The position numbers and the translations under genes were made by a program. A stretch of 57,945 nucleotides of DNA from an uncultured Elusimicrobia bacterium. GTDB lineage: Bacteria > Elusimicrobiota > Elusimicrobia > UBA1565 > UBA9628. Within the stretch, counting starts at the first letter, position 1. The number at the start of each line of letters is the position of its first letter. The stretch spans positions 1-57,945 of the forward strand of contig CAZGVK010000093.1 in NCBI GenBank assembly GCA_964529095.1, in the 5' to 3' direction. The notes under the pieces are model-generated. The model saw nothing but the letters and a program-made list of their open reading frames with translations. It had not been told where the DNA came from and searched no databases. Below are positions 12,331 through 20,948 of the stretch, piece by piece.

Positions 12331-12633
12331 ATGATTGATGTAAATTCGCAGGAAGAGGTCGGTGACCTTTTTGTCACAGAAACTTCTTTGACCCTTAAGC
12401 TGTTGCCCAGCCGCAAAAGCGGCACTGTCCCGATCCATTGGTTTGCCAAAGAGGGGGTCACCAATGTCCGCCTGGCGGCGAAAGATATATCGACGCTCGT
12501 CGGCAAGCTTCGCGGTCGTGGCCGCGTCGTCCGCAATTTGACCGTGACGACCAATCGCGGGCTCGACACCGACCTGGGAAGAACGCGCCTCGGTGAGGCC
12601 GTGAAGAAGGCCGGCTTTCTCATCATTTCATGA
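12331..12633 (+). CDS. Hypothetical small protein, possibly translationally coupled to the SDR gene
   Basis: 100-aa ORF in an otherwise 440-bp gap. Its TGA overlaps the SDR ATG (ATGA). The third-codon positions of the 3' two thirds are G/C-rich like real genes here. No recognisable domain, and the start is uncertain. Confidence 0.3.
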   Translation: MIDVNSQEEVGDLFVTETSLTLKLLPSRKSGTVPIHWFAKEGVTNVRLAAKDISTLVGKLRGRGRVVRNLTVTTNRGLDTDLGRTRLGEAVKKAGFLIIS

Positions 12634-13406
12634 GCGGCGGGAGGCTCCCCGGTACTGTCGTTCTGATCACCGGCGCTGGTTCAGGAATGGGCGCGGAAGC
12701 GACGTCCCGCTTCGCCCATGAAGGTGCCAAAGTGGTCGCTTGCGATGTGAACCTTGAGGCCGTCGAGCGCGTCGTGCGGACGGTGAAAGACTCCGGTGGA
12801 CAGGCGCTCGCAGTCAAGATGAACGTCGCGCAAGAGATGGACGTGAAGGCGGGAATCGCCCTCGCCGTAAAGACCTACGGCAAGATCGACTGCCTTTACA
12901 ATAATGCCGGGATATTCCCTAACGATGATTGTTCGGTCACGGATACCGAAGAAAAAGTCTGGGATGCGGTGCTGGCCGTGAATGTCAAAGGCGTGTATCT
13001 TGTTTGCAAGCACGGCATTCCGGAGTTGCTGGCCAATGGGGGCGGGTCGATCATCAATGTCGCGAGCTTTGTGGCCCTGGTCGGCTGTTCCGTTCCACAG
13101 GACGCCTACACCGCGTCAAAAGGCGCTGTGATCGCGCTGACCAAGTCTCTGGCGGTGCAGTATGGGCCTCGGGGCATCCGCTCCAATGCGATTTGCCCCG
13201 GGCCGATCGAGACGCCTCTGCTGACAAAATGGTTGTTGAAAGAGCCCGCCGAGAAGGCGAAGCGCCTTAACCGTATACCAATGGGCCGCTTCGGCAAGTC
13301 CGAGGACATCGTCAATATGGCATTGTATTTAGCGTCTGAGGAGTCGCGTTGGACCAATGGCGCGGCTTTGGTCGTTGACGGCGGCATTACTTCCAACTAT
13401 TTTTGA
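12630..13406 (+). CDS. Short-chain dehydrogenase/reductase (SDR)
   Basis: 258 aa with TGAGSGMG Rossmann, NNAG, and YTASKGAV (YxxxK) motifs. Confidence 0.9.
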   Translation: MSGGRLPGTVVLITGAGSGMGAEATSRFAHEGAKVVACDVNLEAVERVVRTVKDSGGQALAVKMNVAQEMDVKAGIALAVKTYGKIDCLYNNAGIFPNDDCSVTDTEEKVWDAVLAVNVKGVYLVCKHGIPELLANGGGSIINVASFVALVGCSVPQDAYTASKGAVIALTKSLAVQYGPRGIRSNAICPGPIETPLLTKWLLKEPAEKAKRLNRIPMGRFGKSEDIVNMALYLASEESRWTNGAALVVDGGITSNYF

Positions 13407-13407
13407 C

Positions 13408-14844
13408 ATGCTGACCAAGCTGTGGATCGACGGCAAGGCCGTCTCCGCCCGGTCCGGCATGACCTTCCCTGTTTCCAATCCGGCCGACGGGAGCCTTGTG
13501 GCGAAAGTGGCGCAGGGCGGAGCGCCGGACATCGGCGCCGCCGTGACTGCCGCCGTGAAGGCGGCTTCCGGTCCTTGGGCAAAAATGACCGCGCGTGAGC
13601 GCGGACGGATCCTTCTCAAGATATCAGGGCTCATCCGCGACAATTTAGATTCATTAGCCCTGCTCGAGTGCCGCACGGCGGGCAAGCCTCTTGGCGATGC
13701 CCGCGAGGAGATGGGCCTTGCCGCCGATACCTTTGAGTACTACGGCGGCGCCGCCAATAAATATTTTGGCGAAACGATCCCGGTCGCGGGCCAGGGCCTC
13801 GATTACACCTTGCGCGAGCCGGTCGGTGTGTGCGGCCTCATCGTGCCGTGGAATTTTCCGCTTGTGATCGCGGCATGGAAGCTCGGCCCCGCGCTTGCGT
13901 GCGGCAACACCGTAGTGCTGAAGCCCTCGCCCGAGACCCCGCTCACAGCGTTGGCGTTGGCCAAGCTTGCCGCTGCAGCGGGGCTTCCCGAGGGCGTGCT
14001 CAACGTGGTCCCCGGTCCGGGACCTGGCTGCGGCTCCATCCTCGTGGAGCATGAGCTTGTGCGCAAGATCTCCTTTACCGGTTCGACGGCGACCGGCACG
14101 AAGATCATGAAGGCGGCGGCCGACGGGATCAAGCGCATTTCTCTCGAACTTGGCGGCAAATCACCCACCATTGTTTTTGACGACTGCGACTTTGATCTCT
14201 GTGTTGAAAAATCAGTTTGGTCTGTCTTCTATAATGCCGGTCAGGATTGTTGCGCGCGTTCTCGTATTCTGGTCCAGCGCTCTATCCACGACAGGTTCGT
14301 GGCCGCTCTCGTGGCTCGAACAAAGAAATTCGTCGTAGGCCATCCCGAAAAAAAAGGAACGCAGATCGGCCCGCTCATTTCCGCGCGCCAGCATGACAGG
14401 GTCTCTGGTTATATCGCTTCAGGCAAGGCTGAAGGAGCAAATCTTTTATGCGGCGGCATCCGGCCCGGAGGAGCGCCGCCGAAAGGCCACTATATGACGC
14501 CCGTTATTTTTTCCGGCGCCGAAAACAATATGCGGATCGTCCGTGAAGAAATTTTCGGACCTGTCGCGGCCGTCATCCCCTTCAAGGATGAGGCGGAGGC
14601 GATTCAGCTCGCCAATGACTCGGCCTATGGCCTGTCCGCAAGCCTCTGGACGCGTGATGTCGGCCGTGTTCTGAGAGTGACGCGCTCCGTGCAGAGCGGC
14701 GTCATCTCGGTGAACACAAGCTCAAGCGTCCATCTGGAAGCGCCATTCGGCGGTTATAAAAGCTCGGGCCTTGGCCGCGAGCTCGGCTTTAAGGCGCTCG
14801 ACTTATATTCCGAGATCAAGAATATTTTCATCTCTAATTTATGA
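13408..14844 (+). CDS. NAD(P)-dependent aldehyde dehydrogenase
   Basis: Start moved to ATG 13408 (MLTKLWIDGK), just after the SDR stop. ALDH motifs are present: VPWNFP, ELGGKSP, and GQDCCARSR with the catalytic Cys. Confidence 0.9.
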   Translation: MLTKLWIDGKAVSARSGMTFPVSNPADGSLVAKVAQGGAPDIGAAVTAAVKAASGPWAKMTARERGRILLKISGLIRDNLDSLALLECRTAGKPLGDAREEMGLAADTFEYYGGAANKYFGETIPVAGQGLDYTLREPVGVCGLIVPWNFPLVIAAWKLGPALACGNTVVLKPSPETPLTALALAKLAAAAGLPEGVLNVVPGPGPGCGSILVEHELVRKISFTGSTATGTKIMKAAADGIKRISLELGGKSPTIVFDDCDFDLCVEKSVWSVFYNAGQDCCARSRILVQRSIHDRFVAALVARTKKFVVGHPEKKGTQIGPLISARQHDRVSGYIASGKAEGANLLCGGIRPGGAPPKGHYMTPVIFSGAENNMRIVREEIFGPVAAVIPFKDEAEAIQLANDSAYGLSASLWTRDVGRVLRVTRSVQSGVISVNTSSSVHLEAPFGGYKSSGLGRELGFKALDLYSEIKNIFISNL

Positions 14845-15667
14845 GAGAGGCCGCGTCGCGATCGCAGGCTCCAAGCCTGGGCCAACGGTAAAGCGCGTCG
14901 GCGTTGGCGCTCGTGCGGCGGGCGACCTCCTCAAGAGAAATACCCCACACCTCGGCCAGTTTCGCTGCGATCTCAATGATGGCAACGGGCTCATTGCGCT
15001 TTCCGCGGGAGCTTTGCGGAGGAAGATAGGGGGAGTCGGTTTCAAGCACGACGGCGTCTGGGCCGACGCGGCCAAAGGCCGCGCGCAAAGCGTCATTTTT
15101 CTTGTAGGTGATCGGGCCGTCGGCGCCAAGCGCTAAGCCCAGCGCTGCGCATTCCGCGGCATCATCCGGCGTGCCGGTAAAACAGTGAACGACGCCCCAG
15201 AAGCGCCGGTCGGCGGGCCGGCCGCCATGAATATTTTTTAGAATCGGAAGAAGATCGAGAAATGCGTCGCGGCAATGAATGACGACCGGAATGTCCCAGG
15301 ATTTGGAGGCCAAGGCTATTTTTTCGAACGCGTGCCGCTGGATATCGCGCGGGACCGAGGCCTTCGCGTAGTCAAGCCCGATCTCACCGATGGCAACCGC
15401 TTGTGGGGCGGTATTGAGCGCCGCGCGTAAATGAGGGATGAAGGCGGCGTTGTATCGATCCGCATAGTATGGATGCAGGCCCAAAGCGCAACGCACGCTA
15501 TCGGGTCGTTCTCTCGCGATGGCGATGGCGCGCGTCCATTCATCGGGATGATCGGCGATTTCGACGATGCGGGCGACTCCAGCCGCAGCCGCGCGCGCGA
15601 AGACGCAGTCGCGGTCGGCGTCAAACTGCGGATCGCCGAGATGGGCATGCGTATCGACAAAGGTCAT
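14834..15667 (-). CDS. TatD family metal-dependent hydrolase
   Basis: 277 aa. FVDTHAHL at the N-terminus, with the conserved His/Asp pattern along the sequence. Confidence 0.9.
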   Translation of the reverse strand: MTFVDTHAHLGDPQFDADRDCVFARAAAAGVARIVEIADHPDEWTRAIAIARERPDSVRCALGLHPYYADRYNAAFIPHLRAALNTAPQAVAIGEIGLDYAKASVPRDIQRHAFEKIALASKSWDIPVVIHCRDAFLDLLPILKNIHGGRPADRRFWGVVHCFTGTPDDAAECAALGLALGADGPITYKKNDALRAAFGRVGPDAVVLETDSPYLPPQSSRGKRNEPVAIIEIAAKLAEVWGISLEEVARRTSANADALYRWPRLGACDRDAASLIN

Positions 15668-17109
15668 TGCGCGGAGAAGCGCGCCAATAAAGACAGCGCT
15701 TCGGGGTCATTCTCTGAAGCGAGGTAGCGTGCGCGGATTGGGGCGGCCTCCGGCAGCGTGGCGAAGTAATGGTCAAGAACCATCACCTTGGCGAAGGCAC
15801 GGACGGCGGGATCGGCGTCGCGCAAGGCGTTCGTCAGCGCGGGAAAGGCATTCTTGCCGTCAAGATCGGCGAATAGGTTGAGCGCGCGGATTCGCACGAG
15901 CGGCTTGCCGCTGCCGAGCCAGGCGTCTCGGCGCGCATGGACGGCCGCGCGTTCTTTTTTCCCGATTTCAAACAGCGCGAAATCGGCGTTGCGGCGCACG
16001 ATCTCGGCATCGTCATTGAGGAGCTCGCCTAAACGGTCAATCCAGCGAGGGTCCTGGAACGAGGCCGCGCGCTCGCAGGCCTCGGCGCGCAGCGAGGCGT
16101 CATCAAGGGAGAATCGGGCGCCGAGGCTTTCGACCGGCGCGTTTTGGAGCAGAGACTTGCGGCGCACGTCGAGGATCTCGCGGATGCGTCGCTCGATGGG
16201 ATCTCCGCCGACGGCAAAATCGGGATTCATTCGATAGAGAGCCAGATAAAAAGGCAGAGCGCTTTCAGAGTCGGCGTGGTGCTTGTCATAGATTTGCGCC
16301 AGCTTCGCGGCGGTATATAAATTGTCGGGATTCCCATCCCATGCTAAAGTGAGCCAGCGCAGCGCGTCGTCTATGGCCTTATTTTGGAGCGCCAACGCGC
16401 CCATGATCTGCGCGGCGCCGGCGTGATTCGGATTCTTAGAGAGAGCCTCGGAGGCGACGGCATGGGCGAGGGGAAGGTTGCCGCGCGCAAAGAACGCCAT
16501 GCCCAGGGCCTCCAGTTTCCCGGGGTGTCCGGGATCAGCATGATGAATATCCTCCAGAGCGGTCCGGGCGAGGTAAGCGCTTTGCGAGTTTTCCTCGCCT
16601 GCGGACAGGCGCGACAGGGTGTCGAGGGATTGGCGACCTTCGGGCGTGTCGGGATATCTGCGCGCGATCTCAGCGTGGATGGGGATGCTCAGCGAGGCTT
16701 CTCGCAGGCCCTTGAGGCGGAGGCGTATTAATTCCGCCGGCCCGCCGGCGCCGAGTGTAACTTCAGCGTGGGCGCGCAGGAAGGAGTCGTGGCTGAACAT
16801 CTGCCGCGCGGCATAGAGGACGTAAAAGGAGTCAATCGATCGGCCCGCTTTCCACAGCGCGTTCGATAGGCGCAGATGCGCATGGATATTGAGAAGGCGG
16901 GCGCGGAATTCATTGCGGGCGGAGGTCAGGCCCTCGTCAGCCTCGGTTCGAGACGCAGGGTTTAAGAGCATGACGGAACTCGTGTCGGCGGCTGACTTGA
17001 ACCAATTCAGCGCCATGATCGCGTAGGCGGAAAACGCGGCCGCGATCATGAAAAGCGAAATCGCGATCAGCCCGTTCGTTCGACGCGACTCTTTCATCTC
17101 GCTTATCAT
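15664..17109 (-). CDS. Membrane-anchored TPR/HEAT-repeat protein
   Basis: Track ORF trimmed to M at 17109 (MISEMKESRR), followed by a TM helix (LIAISLFMIAAAFSAYAIMAL). TPR-like repeats in the middle and HEAT-like repeats at the C-terminus. Confidence 0.6.
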   Translation of the reverse strand: MISEMKESRRTNGLIAISLFMIAAAFSAYAIMALNWFKSAADTSSVMLLNPASRTEADEGLTSARNEFRARLLNIHAHLRLSNALWKAGRSIDSFYVLYAARQMFSHDSFLRAHAEVTLGAGGPAELIRLRLKGLREASLSIPIHAEIARRYPDTPEGRQSLDTLSRLSAGEENSQSAYLARTALEDIHHADPGHPGKLEALGMAFFARGNLPLAHAVASEALSKNPNHAGAAQIMGALALQNKAIDDALRWLTLAWDGNPDNLYTAAKLAQIYDKHHADSESALPFYLALYRMNPDFAVGGDPIERRIREILDVRRKSLLQNAPVESLGARFSLDDASLRAEACERAASFQDPRWIDRLGELLNDDAEIVRRNADFALFEIGKKERAAVHARRDAWLGSGKPLVRIRALNLFADLDGKNAFPALTNALRDADPAVRAFAKVMVLDHYFATLPEAAPIRARYLASENDPEALSLLARFSAQ

Positions 17110-17167
17110 AGAAAAAATGCCCGCCCCTAGGACGGCGGGGCGGGCGGCGCCAACGCTTAAAAGCGTC

Positions 17168-17422
17168 CTATTTCGAGAAGAATTTCCAGCGCCGGTCGGA
17201 GTCGCCGGGACGCTTGAGCAGGTGCTCCTCGACGTGAGTCCAGGATTCGGCCTCATCAGGCGGCATCGTCATGCGCTGCCAAGCCTTTTCGCTGTCTTCA
17301 AAGCGTTTGACTAGAACTTCGAGATGCGAAACTTCATCGGCGGACATTGCCTCGACAGCGGCGATCTTGCGGTTTTTGCGGGGGGGCGTCTTGATGGCGG
17401 CGCGTAAAACCTTCTTTTTCAT
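17168..17422 (-). CDS. Hypothetical small charged protein
   Basis: 84 aa with an AGGAGG 8 nt upstream of the ATG. No recognisable family. Confidence 0.4.
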   Translation of the reverse strand: MKKKVLRAAIKTPPRKNRKIAAVEAMSADEVSHLEVLVKRFEDSEKAWQRMTMPPDEAESWTHVEEHLLKRPGDSDRRWKFFSK

Positions 17423-17934: not shown

Positions 17935-18142
17935 AATCTTCTCCCCAACAGTGCCGACACCGATAGGGTATCCTCGTTCCAAATGCTGCGCCTGGGCCGA
18001 AAGGGTAATCTCGAAAAGTCTTTAGACCTATATGAATGAGCCGACAATGAGGGCACAGCGGCGGCCAAATTTGGCGCGGCTTTTGGCCGCACTCATCTCA
18101 TTGACCCGACATCACCATCTTTCTTACTCTTAATGGAGTCAC

Positions 18143-20827
18143 ATGCACAATCAAGCCAAGGTCCACCAAGACGCGCCATCTTCCGCGCTTCTTGATTTTT
18201 TTCTGCCGCTGCACAACGCTTTTGAGCCTCGCCGCCGTCTCCTGCTTGACGCGCGCCGGCGATCTCTTGAAAATGCGCATGCGGGCGTGCTGCCAGGCTA
18301 TCTTCCGGCGTCAGAGGCGACTGCTGGAAAATGGCGCTTGGCGGTGCCCTCATGGGCGCAAGACCAGCGCAACCAGATTACCGGCCCAGCCGACAACGCC
18401 AAGCTTCTTGTCGCGATGTGCAATACCCAAGATCCCGGCTGCATGCCCGACGGCGAGGACTCGATTACGGATGATTGGGATCATGTGAGGACGGCCCATC
18501 GCAATACGGTCGCCGCGATCAAGGGCACCTTGACCTTTACCGACGCTTCCGGCAAGAGGGTGGCAATTAAGCCCTCACGCCAGGTCATGTTTTACCGACC
18601 CCGCGGCCTTCACCTGCATGAGACCAACCTGGTCGCCGTTGGCGCCGTCTCCGCGTCGCTGTTCGATCTTGCCGCTGTTTTTTTCGAAACCGCGGACAAG
18701 CGCCGCGAGGCCGCAAAAAAGGCGGAGCGGCAGGCCAAGCTGTGCTTCTATATTCCCAAAACGGAGTCGTTTGAAGAGGCGGCCTGGTTTTCCGACATGA
18801 TTGCGGCGATGGAAACGGCTATCGGCATCCCTGTCGGTACGACCAAAATAATGTTCCTGATTGAATCGCTTCCAGCGGCCCATCAGGTTGAGGAGATTTT
18901 ATTTGCGGCGCGCCGCCACGCTATCGGTCTCAACCTCGGTCGTTGGGACTACATGGCGAGCATTCTTCATTTCAAGCTGGCCGATCCGGATTGGATTCTT
19001 CCCGACCGCAACACCATACCCCACGACATTCCTTTTTTCCAGAACATAAGAAAGCGAATCGTGGACGCTTGCCATCGGCGAGGGGCGCTCGCCATCGGCG
19101 GCATGAGCGCGTTGTTCCCGGATCGCACGAATGCGGAAGTCAACGCGCGTGCGCAGGAACGGCTTATCGCCGACAAGAAGAACGAGTCTCAAATTGGCTT
19201 TGACGGCGCTTGGACGGGTCATCCCGATCAACACAAGGGTGCCATTTCCCAGTTTCCCCTCCCCAATCAACTCTCAATCAAGCACGCAAAGGCCAAGCGC
19301 CTCGACCTCACGCCCTCGCCTGTCGGCGTCGGTGCGATCACTGTTGCCGGCACGCGCGATGCGATTCGGACCTGCATCGAATACCGTTTCGGCGTACTCT
19401 CGGGCCTTGGCGCGCGCCTGATCAAGGGCTACGACAAGACCGGCGCTTTGATCGGCAATTTCATGGAGGACTTGGCGACCGACCGAATCTACCGTCTCAT
19501 GATTGCCCAGCGCGTTCGCCACGGCGTCGTGACGGCCGAGGGCGTGAAGATATCGTCTGAGCTCGTGGATGCTTGGTTCGATGAGGAACTCCGGAATATT
19601 TTGGCTGCGAATTCAGGAGCCGCTTCGGCGGATCAATACAAGCAAGCCAGCGTGTGGAGCCAGCAAATGATCAAGCAAACAGCCGCGCCTAAACCCGTAG
19701 GAATTAAAACCTGGAAGTATCCCGCCGCCGAATTCGCGAAGATGTATGCGCCTGCCGAGAAGGGACATCCCGCCGACAAACTGCGCGCGCTTCTAAAGAA
19801 AAAATCAGCCAACCGCTTTAAAAATCCGGCGCAGTCCTTCCTGCACACTGCGGGCGCTTACGATGCGATAACCGCCTCGTTGCTCACGGATCTCGGCTTT
19901 GAGGCAATCTACGCCAGCGGCTGGCAGTTGGCCGTCGCCCACAACATGTATCCCGATATCGGCATCTACCCGTCGCATCAGATGGTCGATCTGGCGCGTG
20001 AACTCGTGCGCGGCATTGAGGGCACCCGCGACCGTCACTTTTATGATGATGACGGAAAAGTTCTCAATACGCCGCCGATCTTCGCCGACATCGAGGCTGG
20101 GTTCGGCGGACCGACCCAAACATTTACGCTGACGCGCGAGTTGATCCGCGCGGGCGTGGGCGGCGTTCACCTTGAAGATCAGGATCCGGCGGAGCGCACG
20201 TGCGGCCACATCGTGGCGCACCACGGCGTCAAGCGCGAGAAGGTTCTCGTGCCGACCAATAAGTGGATCGAGAAGCTCATCGCGGTGAAGGCTGCGGCAC
20301 AGGCTGCCGAAACGAACCTGGTCGTGATCGCGCGCACCGATGCAGTCGACGGCGCGGTCCCTGGCGGTCGGACCGGCAGTGTCGCGCACGCGATCGACCG
20401 CGCGCTTGAGGCGGCTTCGCTCGGCGTTGACGTGATCTGGCCTGAGTTCAACAACACCGATATCGAGGGGCCGCAGGAGTTTGCCGAGGGTGTGCATAAA
20501 TATTATCCGAACCAGATACTCGGATTCAACCTCTCTCCTTCGTTGCACTGGGGCAAGGCCAAGAAGGACGGCGTTTTAATCACCAATGAGATGTTGGGAA
20601 AAATAGGCTTTACGCTCCAGTTCTCGACCTTGCTCGCCTTTCGCACGATCGGCATGGCGCTGGAAAGTTCCCTGAAAAGCTTCCGCGAGCGCGGCATTGA
20701 CGCGCTCGCAGACCTGCAGATTTCAGAGATCGCTCAACCCAACGGCGAGCCGCGTACCCGCATGCACCAGAAGTTCGCCGGCACCAACCGCTGGCTCACG
20801 CTCGAGAAAGTCAGCAGGGGCGCATGA
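18143..20827 (+). CDS. Bifunctional malate synthase (N-terminal, A-type) and isocitrate lyase (C-terminal) fusion
   Basis: 894 aa. The N-terminal 520 aa or so carry malate synthase A features (ITGPAD, PDGEDS, GGMSALFP, FDGAWTGHPDQ). The C-terminal 335 aa or so carry ICL features (SGWQ, YPD..IYP, ADIEAGFGG, LEDQ...CGH, VLVPT, ARTDA, NLSPSLHW, LQFSTL). Confidence 0.85.
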   Translation: MHNQAKVHQDAPSSALLDFFLPLHNAFEPRRRLLLDARRRSLENAHAGVLPGYLPASEATAGKWRLAVPSWAQDQRNQITGPADNAKLLVAMCNTQDPGCMPDGEDSITDDWDHVRTAHRNTVAAIKGTLTFTDASGKRVAIKPSRQVMFYRPRGLHLHETNLVAVGAVSASLFDLAAVFFETADKRREAAKKAERQAKLCFYIPKTESFEEAAWFSDMIAAMETAIGIPVGTTKIMFLIESLPAAHQVEEILFAARRHAIGLNLGRWDYMASILHFKLADPDWILPDRNTIPHDIPFFQNIRKRIVDACHRRGALAIGGMSALFPDRTNAEVNARAQERLIADKKNESQIGFDGAWTGHPDQHKGAISQFPLPNQLSIKHAKAKRLDLTPSPVGVGAITVAGTRDAIRTCIEYRFGVLSGLGARLIKGYDKTGALIGNFMEDLATDRIYRLMIAQRVRHGVVTAEGVKISSELVDAWFDEELRNILAANSGAASADQYKQASVWSQQMIKQTAAPKPVGIKTWKYPAAEFAKMYAPAEKGHPADKLRALLKKKSANRFKNPAQSFLHTAGAYDAITASLLTDLGFEAIYASGWQLAVAHNMYPDIGIYPSHQMVDLARELVRGIEGTRDRHFYDDDGKVLNTPPIFADIEAGFGGPTQTFTLTRELIRAGVGGVHLEDQDPAERTCGHIVAHHGVKREKVLVPTNKWIEKLIAVKAAAQAAETNLVVIARTDAVDGAVPGGRTGSVAHAIDRALEAASLGVDVIWPEFNNTDIEGPQEFAEGVHKYYPNQILGFNLSPSLHWGKAKKDGVLITNEMLGKIGFTLQFSTLLAFRTIGMALESSLKSFRERGIDALADLQISEIAQPNGEPRTRMHQKFAGTNRWLTLEKVSRGA

Positions 20828-20948
20828 GTCGACTCGGGGAGCAGCGCCTCCGGTTTTTAGTAGGCGCGCCGCGCGAAGGCGTTTCCACTAAAAGAAGTTG
20901 CAACAGAAATATGATTCAATAGCCGTCGCCTGTCGGGCTCTCCAAACT

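What the first reader, a model, noticed from the sequence alone, without database searches (positions are those of the whole stretch)
18143..20827. Both glyoxylate-shunt enzymes are fused in one polypeptide (malate synthase then isocitrate lyase)
- **Fusion:** one uninterrupted 894-codon ORF has an A-type malate synthase N-terminal part and a compact isocitrate lyase C-terminal part. A linker of about 40 residues (..AAPKPVGIKTWKYPAAEFAKMYAPAEKGHPADKLRALLKKK..) joins them.
- **Precedents:** bifunctional glyoxylate-cycle proteins are described in Caenorhabditis (ICL then MS) and in Euglena (MS then ICL). In bacteria the two are normally separate genes (aceB, aceA).
- **Variant catalytic loop:** the ICL loop reads EDQDPAERTCGHIVAHHGVKREKVLVPT (Cys at codon 687, nt 20201-20203) instead of the canonical K-K-C-G-H followed closely by GK.LVP. 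The loop is both substituted and lengthened.
Basis: partly seen in the sequence, partly recalled or inferred. Interest (0 to 1): 0.6.

Follow-up and report, generated by a model that had tools for sequence, protein, structure and literature searches.

The report
Fused malate synthase–isocitrate lyase gene
An uncultured Elusimicrobiota bacterium encodes both glyoxylate-shunt enzymes (malate synthase, then isocitrate lyase) as one 894-residue protein; the fusion is real and conserved in about 20 related species, but such fusions are already known, so the new part is that both halves belong to unstudied, divergent enzyme subfamilies.

Summary
Window 18143-20827 (+) is one uninterrupted 894-codon ORF with malate synthase A-like domains at residues 17-510 and an isocitrate lyase domain at about 542-894.

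- **Not an artefact.** Contigs from two other studies cross the junction without indels. 19 further species-level Elusimicrobiota genomes carry the same intact fusion.
- **Active sites look intact.** All catalytic and substrate-binding residues checked are kept in both halves. The ICL half groups with ICL, not with methylisocitrate lyase.
- **Origin.** The fusion is consistent with a single origin from an adjacent MS-then-ICL gene pair. That pair still exists as two genes in other Elusimicrobiota and in Acidobacteriota.
The flexible junction is about 5-12 residues, not 40. The rest of the "linker" is the native N-terminal segment of this compact ICL family. The RTCGH loop with its 7-residue insert marks that whole family, fused or free, including Gemmatimonadales. 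Fusions in bacteria were already reported, for Anaeromyxobacter.
- **Context.** This is the genome's only ICL and only MS. The genome also has citrate synthase, aconitase, succinate dehydrogenase, acetyl-CoA synthetase and GTP-PEPCK.

Most likely this is a bifunctional glyoxylate-shunt enzyme, a new variant of a known kind. Enzyme activity is untested.

The parts
18135..18138 (+). Shine-Dalgarno-like GGAG, 4 nt before the ATG
   Evidence: Read directly from the sequence.
18143..20827 (+). Whole fused ORF, 894 codons plus stop (P0001)
   Evidence: The same ORF is conserved at 71-87% identity in about 48 full-length clusters, and the named ones are all Elusimicrobia MAGs. It is intact in 19 further GTDB species representatives.
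18191..19672 (+). Malate synthase A-like half (residues 17-510): N-terminal helices, TIM barrel 149-371 and C-terminal plug 399-510
   Evidence: Pfam. TIGR01344 gives 320 bits, below the 594.5 cut-off. PDB 3cuz matches at E 8e-72. The model superposes on 3cuz/3cv2 with TM 0.84-0.86 normalised to the target.
18596..19471 (+). Span holding the MS catalytic residues: R152 (18596-18598), E241 (18863-18865), D269 (18947-18949), D443 (19469-19471)
   Evidence: These align with E. coli AceB R166, E250, D278 and D447 and are invariant in all 14 aligned sequences. Coordinates. The roles of the E. coli residues are from my knowledge of the MSA/MSG structure papers.
19685..19723 (+). True fusion junction (about residues 515-527, ..KQTAAPKPVGIKT..). 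This is where free MS proteins end and the free ICL leader begins
   Evidence: Alignments with free MS and free ICL. Residues 521-525 have pLDDT below 50. Adjacent two-gene forms are compared.
19703..20824 (+). Compact isocitrate lyase half (residues 521-894), including its native N-terminal leader (about 527-560)
   Evidence: Pfam ICL. NF011645 190 bits and TIGR01346 170 bits, against PrpB 88 bits. PDB ICLs match at E 1e-46. Free-standing 378-400 aa relatives are 62-80% identical.
20174..20257 (+). ICL catalytic loop, residues 678-705. It has RTCGH (Cys687 at 20201-20203) in place of KKCGH, and a 7-residue insert at about 690-696 (20210-20230)
   Evidence: The loop is conserved in every fused, adjacent and free family member among the species representatives examined.
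19916..20785 (+). Span holding the ICL substrate- and metal-binding motifs: SGWQ 592, YPD 603, DIEAGFGG 649, ARTD 730, WPEF 766, NLSPS 796, QFSTL 826, HQKFAGT 875
   Evidence: Alignment with E. coli AceA and PrpB. Coordinates.
20834..20861 (+). Terminator-like hairpin plus T-run, 7 nt after the stop codon. It suggests a monocistronic unit
   Evidence: Consensus scan. This is a pattern match only. The region gave 7 such sites against 4.3 expected by chance.

Best explanation
The gene encodes a genuine single-chain, bifunctional glyoxylate-shunt enzyme of a free-living, uncultured Elusimicrobiota bacterium.

**Proposed mechanism**
- The C-terminal compact ICL domain cleaves isocitrate to succinate and glyoxylate, with Cys687 of the RTCGH loop as the catalytic residue.
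- The N-terminal malate synthase A-like domain condenses that glyoxylate with acetyl-CoA to give malate, using Asp443 as base, Arg152, and Mg2+ held by Glu241 and Asp269.
- The fusion fixes a 1:1 stoichiometry and keeps the reactive aldehyde glyoxylate close to the enzyme that consumes it.
- By analogy with known ICLs, the protein probably assembles around a tetrameric ICL core with four MS domains on short tethers.

**Origin**
The fusion arose, probably once, inside one Elusimicrobiota family, by joining an adjacent MS-then-ICL gene pair. Both partners belong to divergent subfamilies.

**Shown here:** the ORF, the domains, residue conservation, the distribution across genomes, consistency with a single origin, and the pathway context.

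**Inferred:** both activities, the substrate identities, any channelling benefit, and the quaternary structure.
For: **1. The ORF is real**
- It is uninterrupted.
- Independent contigs from two studies cross the junction without indels, and the variants seen in the ORF are synonymous or conservative.
- About 48 full-length clusters share it at 71-87% identity.
- 19 further GTDB species representatives have it in one open frame, and 11 genomes including this one do in the phylum survey.

**2. The MS half looks active**
- It has the MS_N, TIM-barrel and MS_C domains, and its best solved relative is E. coli MSA.
- The counterparts of E. coli R166, E250, D278 and D447 are invariant.
- The model fits 3cuz with TM 0.84-0.86.

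**3. The ICL half looks active on isocitrate**
- The motifs SGWQ, YPD, D-x-E-A-G-F-G-G, EDQ, C-G-H, ARTD, W-x-E, N-x-S-P-S, Q-F-x-T and H-Q..G-T are all kept.
- The F and T of QFSTL sit where ICL and MICL differ: E. coli AceA has F..T and PrpB has L..P. A 2025 JBC paper implicates the corresponding positions in substrate choice (PMC11982470).
- In the tree the compact family is sister to canonical ICL, with the MICLs outside it.

**4. The two types appear interchangeable**
- Relatives pair the compact ICL with a canonical, unlinked MS (G398, G315, G374).
- One relative pairs the divergent MS with a canonical ICL (G265).
- In 5 of 5 Gemmatimonadales genomes tested, the compact ICL is the only ICL-family gene, and each has one canonical MS.

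**5. Origin of the fusion**
- Adjacent two-gene forms exist in the same order (L061, L066, L067). In L067 one in-frame stop separates the two genes.
- A tree in which all fused-type ICL rows form one clade is not rejected (AU p 0.63).
- Fused MS halves form one clade with 98% support.

**6. Pathway context in this genome**
- This is the only ICL and the only MS. The one other weak MS_TIM-barrel hit is a DUF6986 protein.
- Also present: citrate synthase, aconitase, three Iso_dh-family genes, an SDH flavoprotein, AcsA at 980 bits against a 725 cut-off, and GTP-PEPCK.

**7. Precedent**
Henry et al. 2016 tabulate an ICL/MS fusion with glyoxylate as the intermediate, in their section on fusions of neighbouring genes and unstable metabolites.
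Against: - No activity has been measured for any member of either subfamily, and I found no paper on them.
- Both halves score far below NCBI's equivalog cut-offs: 320 against 594.5 for MSA, and 190 against 562 or 170 against 276 for ICL. PGAP therefore gives only generic names.
- The two lysines of the KKCGH signature are replaced by Arg and Thr, and the loop is 7 residues longer. The literature calls KKCGH essential for ICL function (PMC12088919).
- Some lineages have lost or broken the MS part of the fused gene (L042, L048, L036, L069). The covalent link is therefore dispensable.
- pTM is 0.62, so the model fixes no domain interface and gives no structural support for a channel.
- No RNA data were available.
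Confidence: 0.72

Rival explanations
1. The two domains are active but not on the classical substrates. The compact RTCGH lyase would cleave a different 2-hydroxy-acid, such as 2-methylisocitrate or another substituted malate. Alternatively, the MS-like domain would condense glyoxylate with a different acyl-CoA. The fusion would then serve a pathway other than the glyoxylate shunt.
For: - Both halves are far below the equivalog cut-offs.
- Each sits on a long branch away from canonical ICL (length 3.96) and canonical MSA (length 2.59).
- The catalytic loop is substituted and lengthened.
- The MS subfamily carries its own inserts, including about 10 residues just before the catalytic-Asp segment.
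Against: - Every glyoxylate-, succinate- and Mg-binding motif of ICL is kept, including the F/T positions where ICL differs from MICL.
- MICL models score much lower: 88 bits against 190.
- Genomes mix the compact ICL with a canonical MS, and the divergent MS with a canonical ICL. That is expected if the types do the same job.
- This genome has no other ICL or MS, yet it has AcsA, the TCA enzymes and PEPCK.
Confidence: 0.15
2. One half is catalytically dead and serves a structural or regulatory role for the other. An example would be an acetyl-CoA-sensing domain, by analogy with the regulatory C-terminal domain of M. tuberculosis ICL2.
For: - The canonical KKCGH motif is absent.
- Some stand-alone relatives have lost the catalytic loop altogether: P0201, P0202, P0208, P0223 and P0203. 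Dead paralogues therefore do arise in this family.
- Some lineages delete the MS barrel and keep the ICL (L048, L042).
Against: - In the fused proteins, Cys-Gly-His and every ligand residue of both halves are invariant across about 20 species.
- This is the genome's sole ICL and sole MS.
Confidence: 0.06
3. The fusion is an assembly or sequencing artefact. A missed stop or frameshift would have joined two adjacent genes.
For: - The source is a fragmented MAG of 221 contigs.
- Close relatives exist with two adjacent genes (L061, L066, L067).
- Two relatives show frameshifted versions (L036, L069).
Against: - Contigs from two different studies cross the junction with no indel.
- 19 independent assemblies from different habitats and groups have the same in-frame junction.
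- About 48 protein clusters from NCBI, JGI, ENA and Logan are full length.
Confidence: 0.02

Closest known systems
Euglena gracilis bifunctional glyoxylate-cycle enzyme (MS then ICL), as described in Kondrashov et al. 2006, PMC1630690
   Same: One polypeptide with malate synthase at the N-terminus and isocitrate lyase at the C-terminus. It is thought to derive from an MS-ICL operon.
   Different: It is eukaryotic. No Euglena sequence was at hand, so relatedness was not tested. The other MS-then-ICL fusions found in public data have canonical-scoring halves: P0242 (986 aa), P0252 (1062 aa), P0261 (996 aa) and P0398-P0405. Their MS_TIM-barrel scores are 249-346 bits and ICL scores 248-338 bits, with only 33-37% identity to this protein. 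The Elusimicrobiota fusion is 894 aa and is built from divergent subfamilies, so it is an independent event.
Nematode ICL-MS bifunctional protein (C. elegans type; Strongyloides P0245)
   Same: Both shunt enzymes are in one chain, and bifunctional activity has been reported (cited in PMC1630690).
   Different: The domain order is reversed, with ICL first. Both halves are canonical, and identity to this protein is 34%.
Anaeromyxobacter ICL/MS fusion (Kondrashov 2006, PMC1630690; Henry et al. 2016, PMC4921024, fig|404589.10.peg.3099)
   Same: It is a bacterial gene fusing the two shunt enzymes. Henry et al. tabulate it with glyoxylate as the intermediate.
   Different: It is from a different phylum (Myxococcota). 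I could not retrieve its sequence, so its domain order and subfamilies were not compared. It is known only from genome annotation.
E. coli AceB (malate synthase A) and AceA (isocitrate lyase), encoded by adjacent genes in the ace operon (L017)
   Same: Same gene order (aceB then aceA), same folds, and the same catalytic and ligand residues.
   Different: They are separate proteins. AceA is 434 aa with KKCGH-MGGKVLVPT and a roughly 20-30 residue segment after ARTDA that the compact ICL lacks. The MS half of this protein has its own inserts.
Free-standing compact ICL family (378-400 aa) of Gemmatimonadales, Acidobacteriota (Polarisedimenticolia) and Elusimicrobiota, with the adjacent MS-then-ICL pairs L061, L066 and L067
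   Same: They are 62-80% identical to the ICL half, with the same RTCGH loop, insert and N-terminal leader. The adjacent pairs have the same two subfamilies in the same order.
   Different: They are not fused. In Gemmatimonadales the partner MS is canonical and unlinked. These proteins are uncharacterised and carry only generic annotation.

Membership tests
Isocitrate lyase (EC 4.1.3.1; Pfam PF00463, NCBIfam NF011645 / TIGR01346) | Match to the Pfam ICL model above its gathering score | tested here: met
   140.3 bits against a cut-off of 26.
Isocitrate lyase (EC 4.1.3.1; Pfam PF00463, NCBIfam NF011645 / TIGR01346) | Score above the NCBIfam equivalog cut-off | tested here: not met
   NF011645 scores 189.7 against 562, and TIGR01346 scores 169.6 against 275.9. 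These are still the best-scoring models for this half. PrpB scores 87.7.
Isocitrate lyase (EC 4.1.3.1; Pfam PF00463, NCBIfam NF011645 / TIGR01346) | K-K-C-G-H catalytic-loop signature | tested here: not met
   The loop reads R-T-C-G-H, with a 7-residue insert before K-V-L-V-P-T. Cys, Gly and His are kept.
Isocitrate lyase (EC 4.1.3.1; Pfam PF00463, NCBIfam NF011645 / TIGR01346) | Mg2+, glyoxylate and succinate ligand motifs (S-G-W, Y-P-D, D-x-E-A-G-F-G-G, E-D-Q, A-R-T-D, W-x-E, N-x-S-P-S, Q-F-x-T) | tested here: met
   All are present in the alignment with E. coli AceA. The roles of these residues are from my knowledge of the M. tuberculosis and E. coli ICL structures.
Isocitrate lyase (EC 4.1.3.1; Pfam PF00463, NCBIfam NF011645 / TIGR01346) | Groups with ICL rather than methylisocitrate lyase or PEP mutase relatives | tested here: met
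   The compact family is sister to canonical ICLs, with E. coli PrpB and two MICL-like proteins as outgroup. The branches are long, so this is supportive rather than conclusive.
Isocitrate lyase (EC 4.1.3.1; Pfam PF00463, NCBIfam NF011645 / TIGR01346) | Cleaves isocitrate to glyoxylate and succinate | not testable with these tools
   This needs an enzyme assay.
Malate synthase A (EC 2.3.3.9; Pfam PF20656 / PF01274 / PF20659, TIGR01344) | Three-domain MS architecture above Pfam cut-offs | tested here: met
   TIM barrel 190 bits and MS_C 43.3 bits are above their cut-offs. MS_N at 18.5 bits is just below its 23.5 cut-off.
Malate synthase A (EC 2.3.3.9; Pfam PF20656 / PF01274 / PF20659, TIGR01344) | Score above the TIGR01344 equivalog cut-off | tested here: not met
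   320.4 bits against 594.5.
Malate synthase A (EC 2.3.3.9; Pfam PF20656 / PF01274 / PF20659, TIGR01344) | Catalytic Asp and Arg, and the two Mg2+ ligands (E. coli D447, R166, E250, D278) | tested here: met
   They correspond to D443, R152, E241 and D269 and are invariant in all 14 aligned sequences.
Malate synthase A (EC 2.3.3.9; Pfam PF20656 / PF01274 / PF20659, TIGR01344) | MSA fold | tested here: met
   The AlphaFold2 model (pLDDT 88.9) matches 3cuz and 3cv2 at E 1.5e-36, with TM 0.84-0.86 per target.
Malate synthase A (EC 2.3.3.9; Pfam PF20656 / PF01274 / PF20659, TIGR01344) | Condenses glyoxylate with acetyl-CoA to give malate | not testable with these tools
   This needs an enzyme assay.
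Bifunctional glyoxylate-cycle protein (MS-ICL or ICL-MS fusion) | Both domains in one uninterrupted reading frame, reproducible across assemblies | tested here: met
Bifunctional glyoxylate-cycle protein (MS-ICL or ICL-MS fusion) | Common descent with the Euglena, nematode or Anaeromyxobacter fusions | tested here: inconclusive
   The nematode form has the reverse order and canonical halves at 34% identity. The fused clade nests among unfused Elusimicrobiota and Acidobacteriota genes, which argues for an independent fusion.
Bifunctional glyoxylate-cycle protein (MS-ICL or ICL-MS fusion) | Both activities shown in one protein | not testable with these tools
   This needs biochemistry.

The most novel reading that the evidence does not exclude
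The compact RTCGH lyase and its divergent MS partner would be a previously unrecognised second type of glyoxylate-shunt enzyme pair.

- **Reach:** the compact lyase is at 344 loci among GTDB species representatives, in Gemmatimonadales, Acidobacteriota and Elusimicrobiota.
- **Altered chemistry:** the second signature lysine is replaced by Thr, and a conserved basic 7-residue insert (HHG-x-K-R-x) may supply the missing charge. This could change kinetics, regulation or substrate range relative to every ICL studied so far.
- **Role of the fusion:** the Elusimicrobiota fusion would be a natural single-chain version with real glyoxylate channelling.
- **Annotation gap:** standard annotation (PGAP) does not name either protein, so the shunt would be systematically under-called in these phyla.
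Probability: 0.25. Interest if true: 0.6.

Novelty: new variant of a known kind. Interest (0 to 1): 0.42.

Why it matters
- **Better metabolic reconstructions.** The glyoxylate shunt decides whether a bacterium can build biomass from acetate and fatty acids. In these soil, groundwater and glacier-stream lineages the two key enzymes are annotated only as "isocitrate lyase/PEP mutase family" and "aldolase/citrate lyase family". Recognising them changes the reconstructed metabolism of Elusimicrobiota, Gemmatimonadales and Polarisedimenticolia.
- **A test of the KKCGH signature.** The compact ICL departs from KKCGH, which is treated as diagnostic and essential. It therefore tests what the two lysines actually do.
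- **A natural channelling experiment.** A naturally fused MS-ICL with a very short tether exists alongside unfused sister pairs and natural MS-deletion variants. This gives a ready-made comparison for asking whether fusion protects the cell from glyoxylate. It is also a compact part for engineering acetate assimilation.

Tried and rejected
I could not see the gene neighbourhoods, and hence the bacterial or eukaryotic origin, of the other MS-then-ICL fusions (P0242, P0252, P0261, P0398-P0405).
- **Anaeromyxobacter fusion:** its sequence could not be fetched, so its domain order and subfamilies were not compared.
- **Expression:** no RNA holder was listed for this stretch, so nothing can be said about expression.
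- **Runs X3 and X4:** they mostly hold related strains or other organisms. Their joints and loose ends were not interpreted.
- **Gene neighbourhood as a clue to function:**
  - The window gene sits between a divergently oriented hypothetical gene and a zinc-ribbon gene.
  - Neighbours of stand-alone compact ICLs in Gemmatimonadales (L074) and Elusimicrobiota (L059) are unrelated housekeeping genes.
  - This gave no operon evidence either way.
- **Literature:** searches for "RTCGH", for Elusimicrobia with ICL/MS, and for Gemmatimonadetes with the glyoxylate shunt found no description of this family.
- **Weak second MS_TIM-barrel hit** in the genome (C56): rejected as a second malate synthase. 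It is a DUF6986 protein next to a molybdopterin-dehydrogenase FAD subunit.
- **The 40-residue linker** was considered and rejected.
- **Methylisocitrate lyase or PEP mutase identity** for the C-terminal half was considered and rejected.
- **The AlphaFold2 monomer model** (pTM 0.62) was not used to argue for or against a channel.


Full report
**1. The observation**

Window 18143-20827 (+) is a single 894-codon ORF with no internal stop. A GGAG sits 4 nt before the ATG. A terminator-like hairpin and T-run lie 7 nt after the stop.

- Pfam places MS_N (weak), MS_TIM-barrel (149-371, E 4.6e-56) and MS_C (399-510) in the first half. It places ICL (from 542, E 1e-40) in the second half.
- The closest solved proteins are E. 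coli malate synthase A, 3cuz (E 8e-72), and bacterial isocitrate lyases such as 6lrp (E 1e-46).
- An AlphaFold2 model built on 102 relatives has mean pLDDT 88.9. Its N-terminal half fits 3cuz and 3cv2 with TM 0.84-0.86. Its C-terminal half finds only ICL structures.

**2. Is the fusion real?**

- Logan contigs of two runs from different studies cross 19650-19850 with no gap.
- The five substitutions seen in the ORF are four synonymous changes and one conservative change, I576M.
- About 48 clusters of full-length proteins, 71-87% identical, come from NCBI, JGI, ENA and Logan assemblies. The named ones are all Elusimicrobia MAGs.
- Among GTDB species representatives, 19 further genomes carry the fusion in one open frame of 883-1022 codons. 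They come from groundwater, glacier-fed stream, palsa and other samples.
- A survey of 401 genomes of the phylum found it intact in 11 genomes including this one, across six genera of one family.

An assembly artefact is excluded for practical purposes.

**3. What are the halves?**

Both halves are divergent. TIGR01344 (malate synthase A) scores 320 bits against a cut-off of 594.5. The ICL equivalogs score 190 against 562 and 170 against 276. This explains PGAP's generic names.

The active sites nevertheless look intact.

*MS half.* The counterparts of E. coli AceB R166, E250, D278 and D447 are R152, E241, D269 and D443. They are invariant in fused and free relatives.

*ICL half.*
- The motifs SGWQ, YPD, DIEAGFGG, EDQ, CGH, ARTD, WPE, NLSPS, QFSTL and HQ..GT all align with E. 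coli AceA.
- The F and T of QFSTL sit where AceA (F..T) and PrpB (L..P) differ. PMC11982470 implicates the corresponding positions in substrate choice.
- MICL models score only 88 bits.
- In a tree rooted on E. coli PrpB and two MICL-like proteins, the compact family is sister to canonical ICLs, though on a long branch.

**4. The variant loop**

The loop is as described: residues 678-705, Cys687 at nt 20201-20203, RTCGH in place of KKCGH, and 7 extra residues before KVLVPT.

It is not special to this gene or to the fusion.
- 162 of the 164 sequences the pattern matched have RTCGH with the same spacing.
- Every species-representative locus examined has it, whether fused, adjacent or free, including Gemmatimonadales, which read NRTCGHIVNVGK.KR.KVLVP.
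- Canonical ICLs from other Elusimicrobiota keep KKCGHMGGKVLVPT.

The loop is thus a conserved signature of a compact ICL family of about 380 aa. That family also lacks roughly 20-30 residues after ARTDA. It is present at 344 loci in the GTDB representative set.

**5. The linker**

- Free MS relatives end at ..MI(H/R)RGEF, where the fused protein reads ..MIKQTA.
- Free compact ICLs begin with a short variable tip, followed by KTW.YP..FAK.YAP.E..P..KLR.LL.
- That segment corresponds to residues from about 527 in the fused protein.

The true junction is therefore about residues 515-527. Only residues 521-525 are disordered in the model.

**6. Evolution**

Adjacent two-gene forms of the same two subfamilies, in the same order, exist in:
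- an Elusimicrobiota genome of a sister family (L061 = G078; MS 65% and ICL 73% identical);
- Acidobacteriota/Polarisedimenticolia (L066, L067). In L067 the two genes share a frame and are separated by a single stop.

Evidence on the number of origins:
- All fused-type ICL rows held together as one clade is not rejected. The constrained tree is 0.74 log-likelihood units better than the free tree, and AU p is 0.63.
- Fused MS halves form one clade with 98% support.

A single fusion in one Elusimicrobiota family is the simplest reading.

Inside that clade there is secondary decay:
- an in-frame deletion of the MS barrel (L048);
- loss of the MS part that leaves only its tail (L042);
- frameshifted copies (L036, L069);
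- a free MS with no ICL downstream (G265).

**7. Function in context**

- The genome is a 2.56 Mb MAG, 96% complete. It has no other ICL or MS. The one other weak MS_TIM-barrel hit is a DUF6986 protein.
- It has citrate synthase, aconitase, three Iso_dh-family genes, an SDH flavoprotein, an acetyl-CoA synthetase above its equivalog cut-off, and GTP-PEPCK. This is everything needed to run the shunt on acetate and feed gluconeogenesis.
- Related genomes mix the types:
  - compact ICL with an unlinked canonical MS (G398, G315, G374);
  - divergent MS with a canonical ICL (G265);
  - in 5 of 5 Gemmatimonadales genomes tested, the compact ICL is the only ICL-family gene, beside one canonical MS.

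This interchangeability is the best genomic evidence that both subfamilies do the classical reactions.

**8. What is known**

- Fused MS/ICL proteins are established in nematodes (ICL then MS) and Euglena (MS then ICL). Kondrashov et al. 2006 count a third fusion in Anaeromyxobacter dehalogenans (PMC1630690).
- Henry et al. 2016 tabulate an ICL/MS fusion in Anaeromyxobacter sp. Fw109-5 with glyoxylate as the intermediate. It appears in their section on fusions of neighbouring genes and unstable metabolites (PMC4921024).
- A search of 1.84 billion representative proteins found further MS-then-ICL fusions of 982-1166 aa with canonical halves, of unknown origin. It also found the Strongyloides ICL-MS protein.
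- I found no paper on the Elusimicrobiota fusion, the compact ICL family or the RTCGH loop.

**9. Verdict**

- This is a new variant of a known kind: an independent bacterial fusion in the MS-then-ICL order, built from two uncharacterised, divergent subfamilies.
- Activities, channelling and quaternary structure are inferred, not shown.
- Interest is moderate. The fusion itself is not surprising. The more useful lead is the widespread, poorly annotated compact ICL with a non-canonical catalytic loop.

Noticed in passing
Proteins P0201, P0202, P0208, P0223, P0203 (stand-alone compact ICL relatives from metagenomes): The catalytic loop is deleted or replaced in these proteins, while the rest of the protein stays 62-71% identical to the ICL half. 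Examples: HLEDQDPAEKAKVLLPT, HLEDQDSAQWIEKL, and ERGAGRF in place of ERTCGHI. They look like catalytically dead paralogues of the compact ICL.
   Followed up: partly
L048:3073-4665 (Elusimicrobiota MAG C5_metabat.bin.68): This is a fused-type gene in which MS residues of about 128-463, the whole TIM barrel, are missing in frame. The ICL part is intact and 91% identical. It is a natural MS-deletion variant.
   Followed up: partly
L042:3854-5122 (Elusimicrobiota MAG GFS_2774; same genome as L057): This is an ICL-only gene, 92% identical to the ICL half. It is preceded by a degenerate remnant of the MS C-terminal tail (..SATADKNHRACPEPTMIKEAAAPLP..), so the MS domain was lost from a fused ancestor. 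The same genome holds a second stand-alone compact ICL, L057, at 78% identity.
   Followed up: partly
L069 and L060 (CP096137.1, a closed 3.8 Mb Elusimicrobiota genome): The fused-type copy (L069) is read in three frames within about 400 nt around the junction. This is either indel errors or a true pseudogene. A second, stand-alone compact ICL paralogue (L060, 77% identical) lies 2.6 Mb away.
   Followed up: partly
Proteins P0242, P0252, P0261, P0398-P0405: These are other MS-then-ICL fusion proteins of 982-1166 aa with canonical-scoring halves, from metagenome assemblies. Their source organisms are unknown, on contigs of up to 292 kb. They could be bacterial or protist.
   Followed up: partly
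G000:C56 (L004:265-1614, minus strand): A 449-aa DUF6986 protein (593 bits) is a distant relative of the malate synthase barrel. It lies directly downstream of a molybdopterin-dehydrogenase FAD-binding subunit gene. Its function is unknown.
   Followed up: no
L033 (CALRXP010000125.1): The record is titled "Candidatus Endomicrobium trichonymphae", yet it carries the fused gene and clusters tightly with environmental Elusimicrobiota MAGs. The organism label looks doubtful.
   Followed up: no
window 12630-14844 (+) and 15664-17256 (-): An SDR (12630-13406) overlaps the start of an aldehyde dehydrogenase (13357-14844) upstream of the fused gene. A 530-aa HEAT/TPR repeat protein lies on the opposite strand. 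None appears to be co-transcribed with the fused gene.
   Followed up: no
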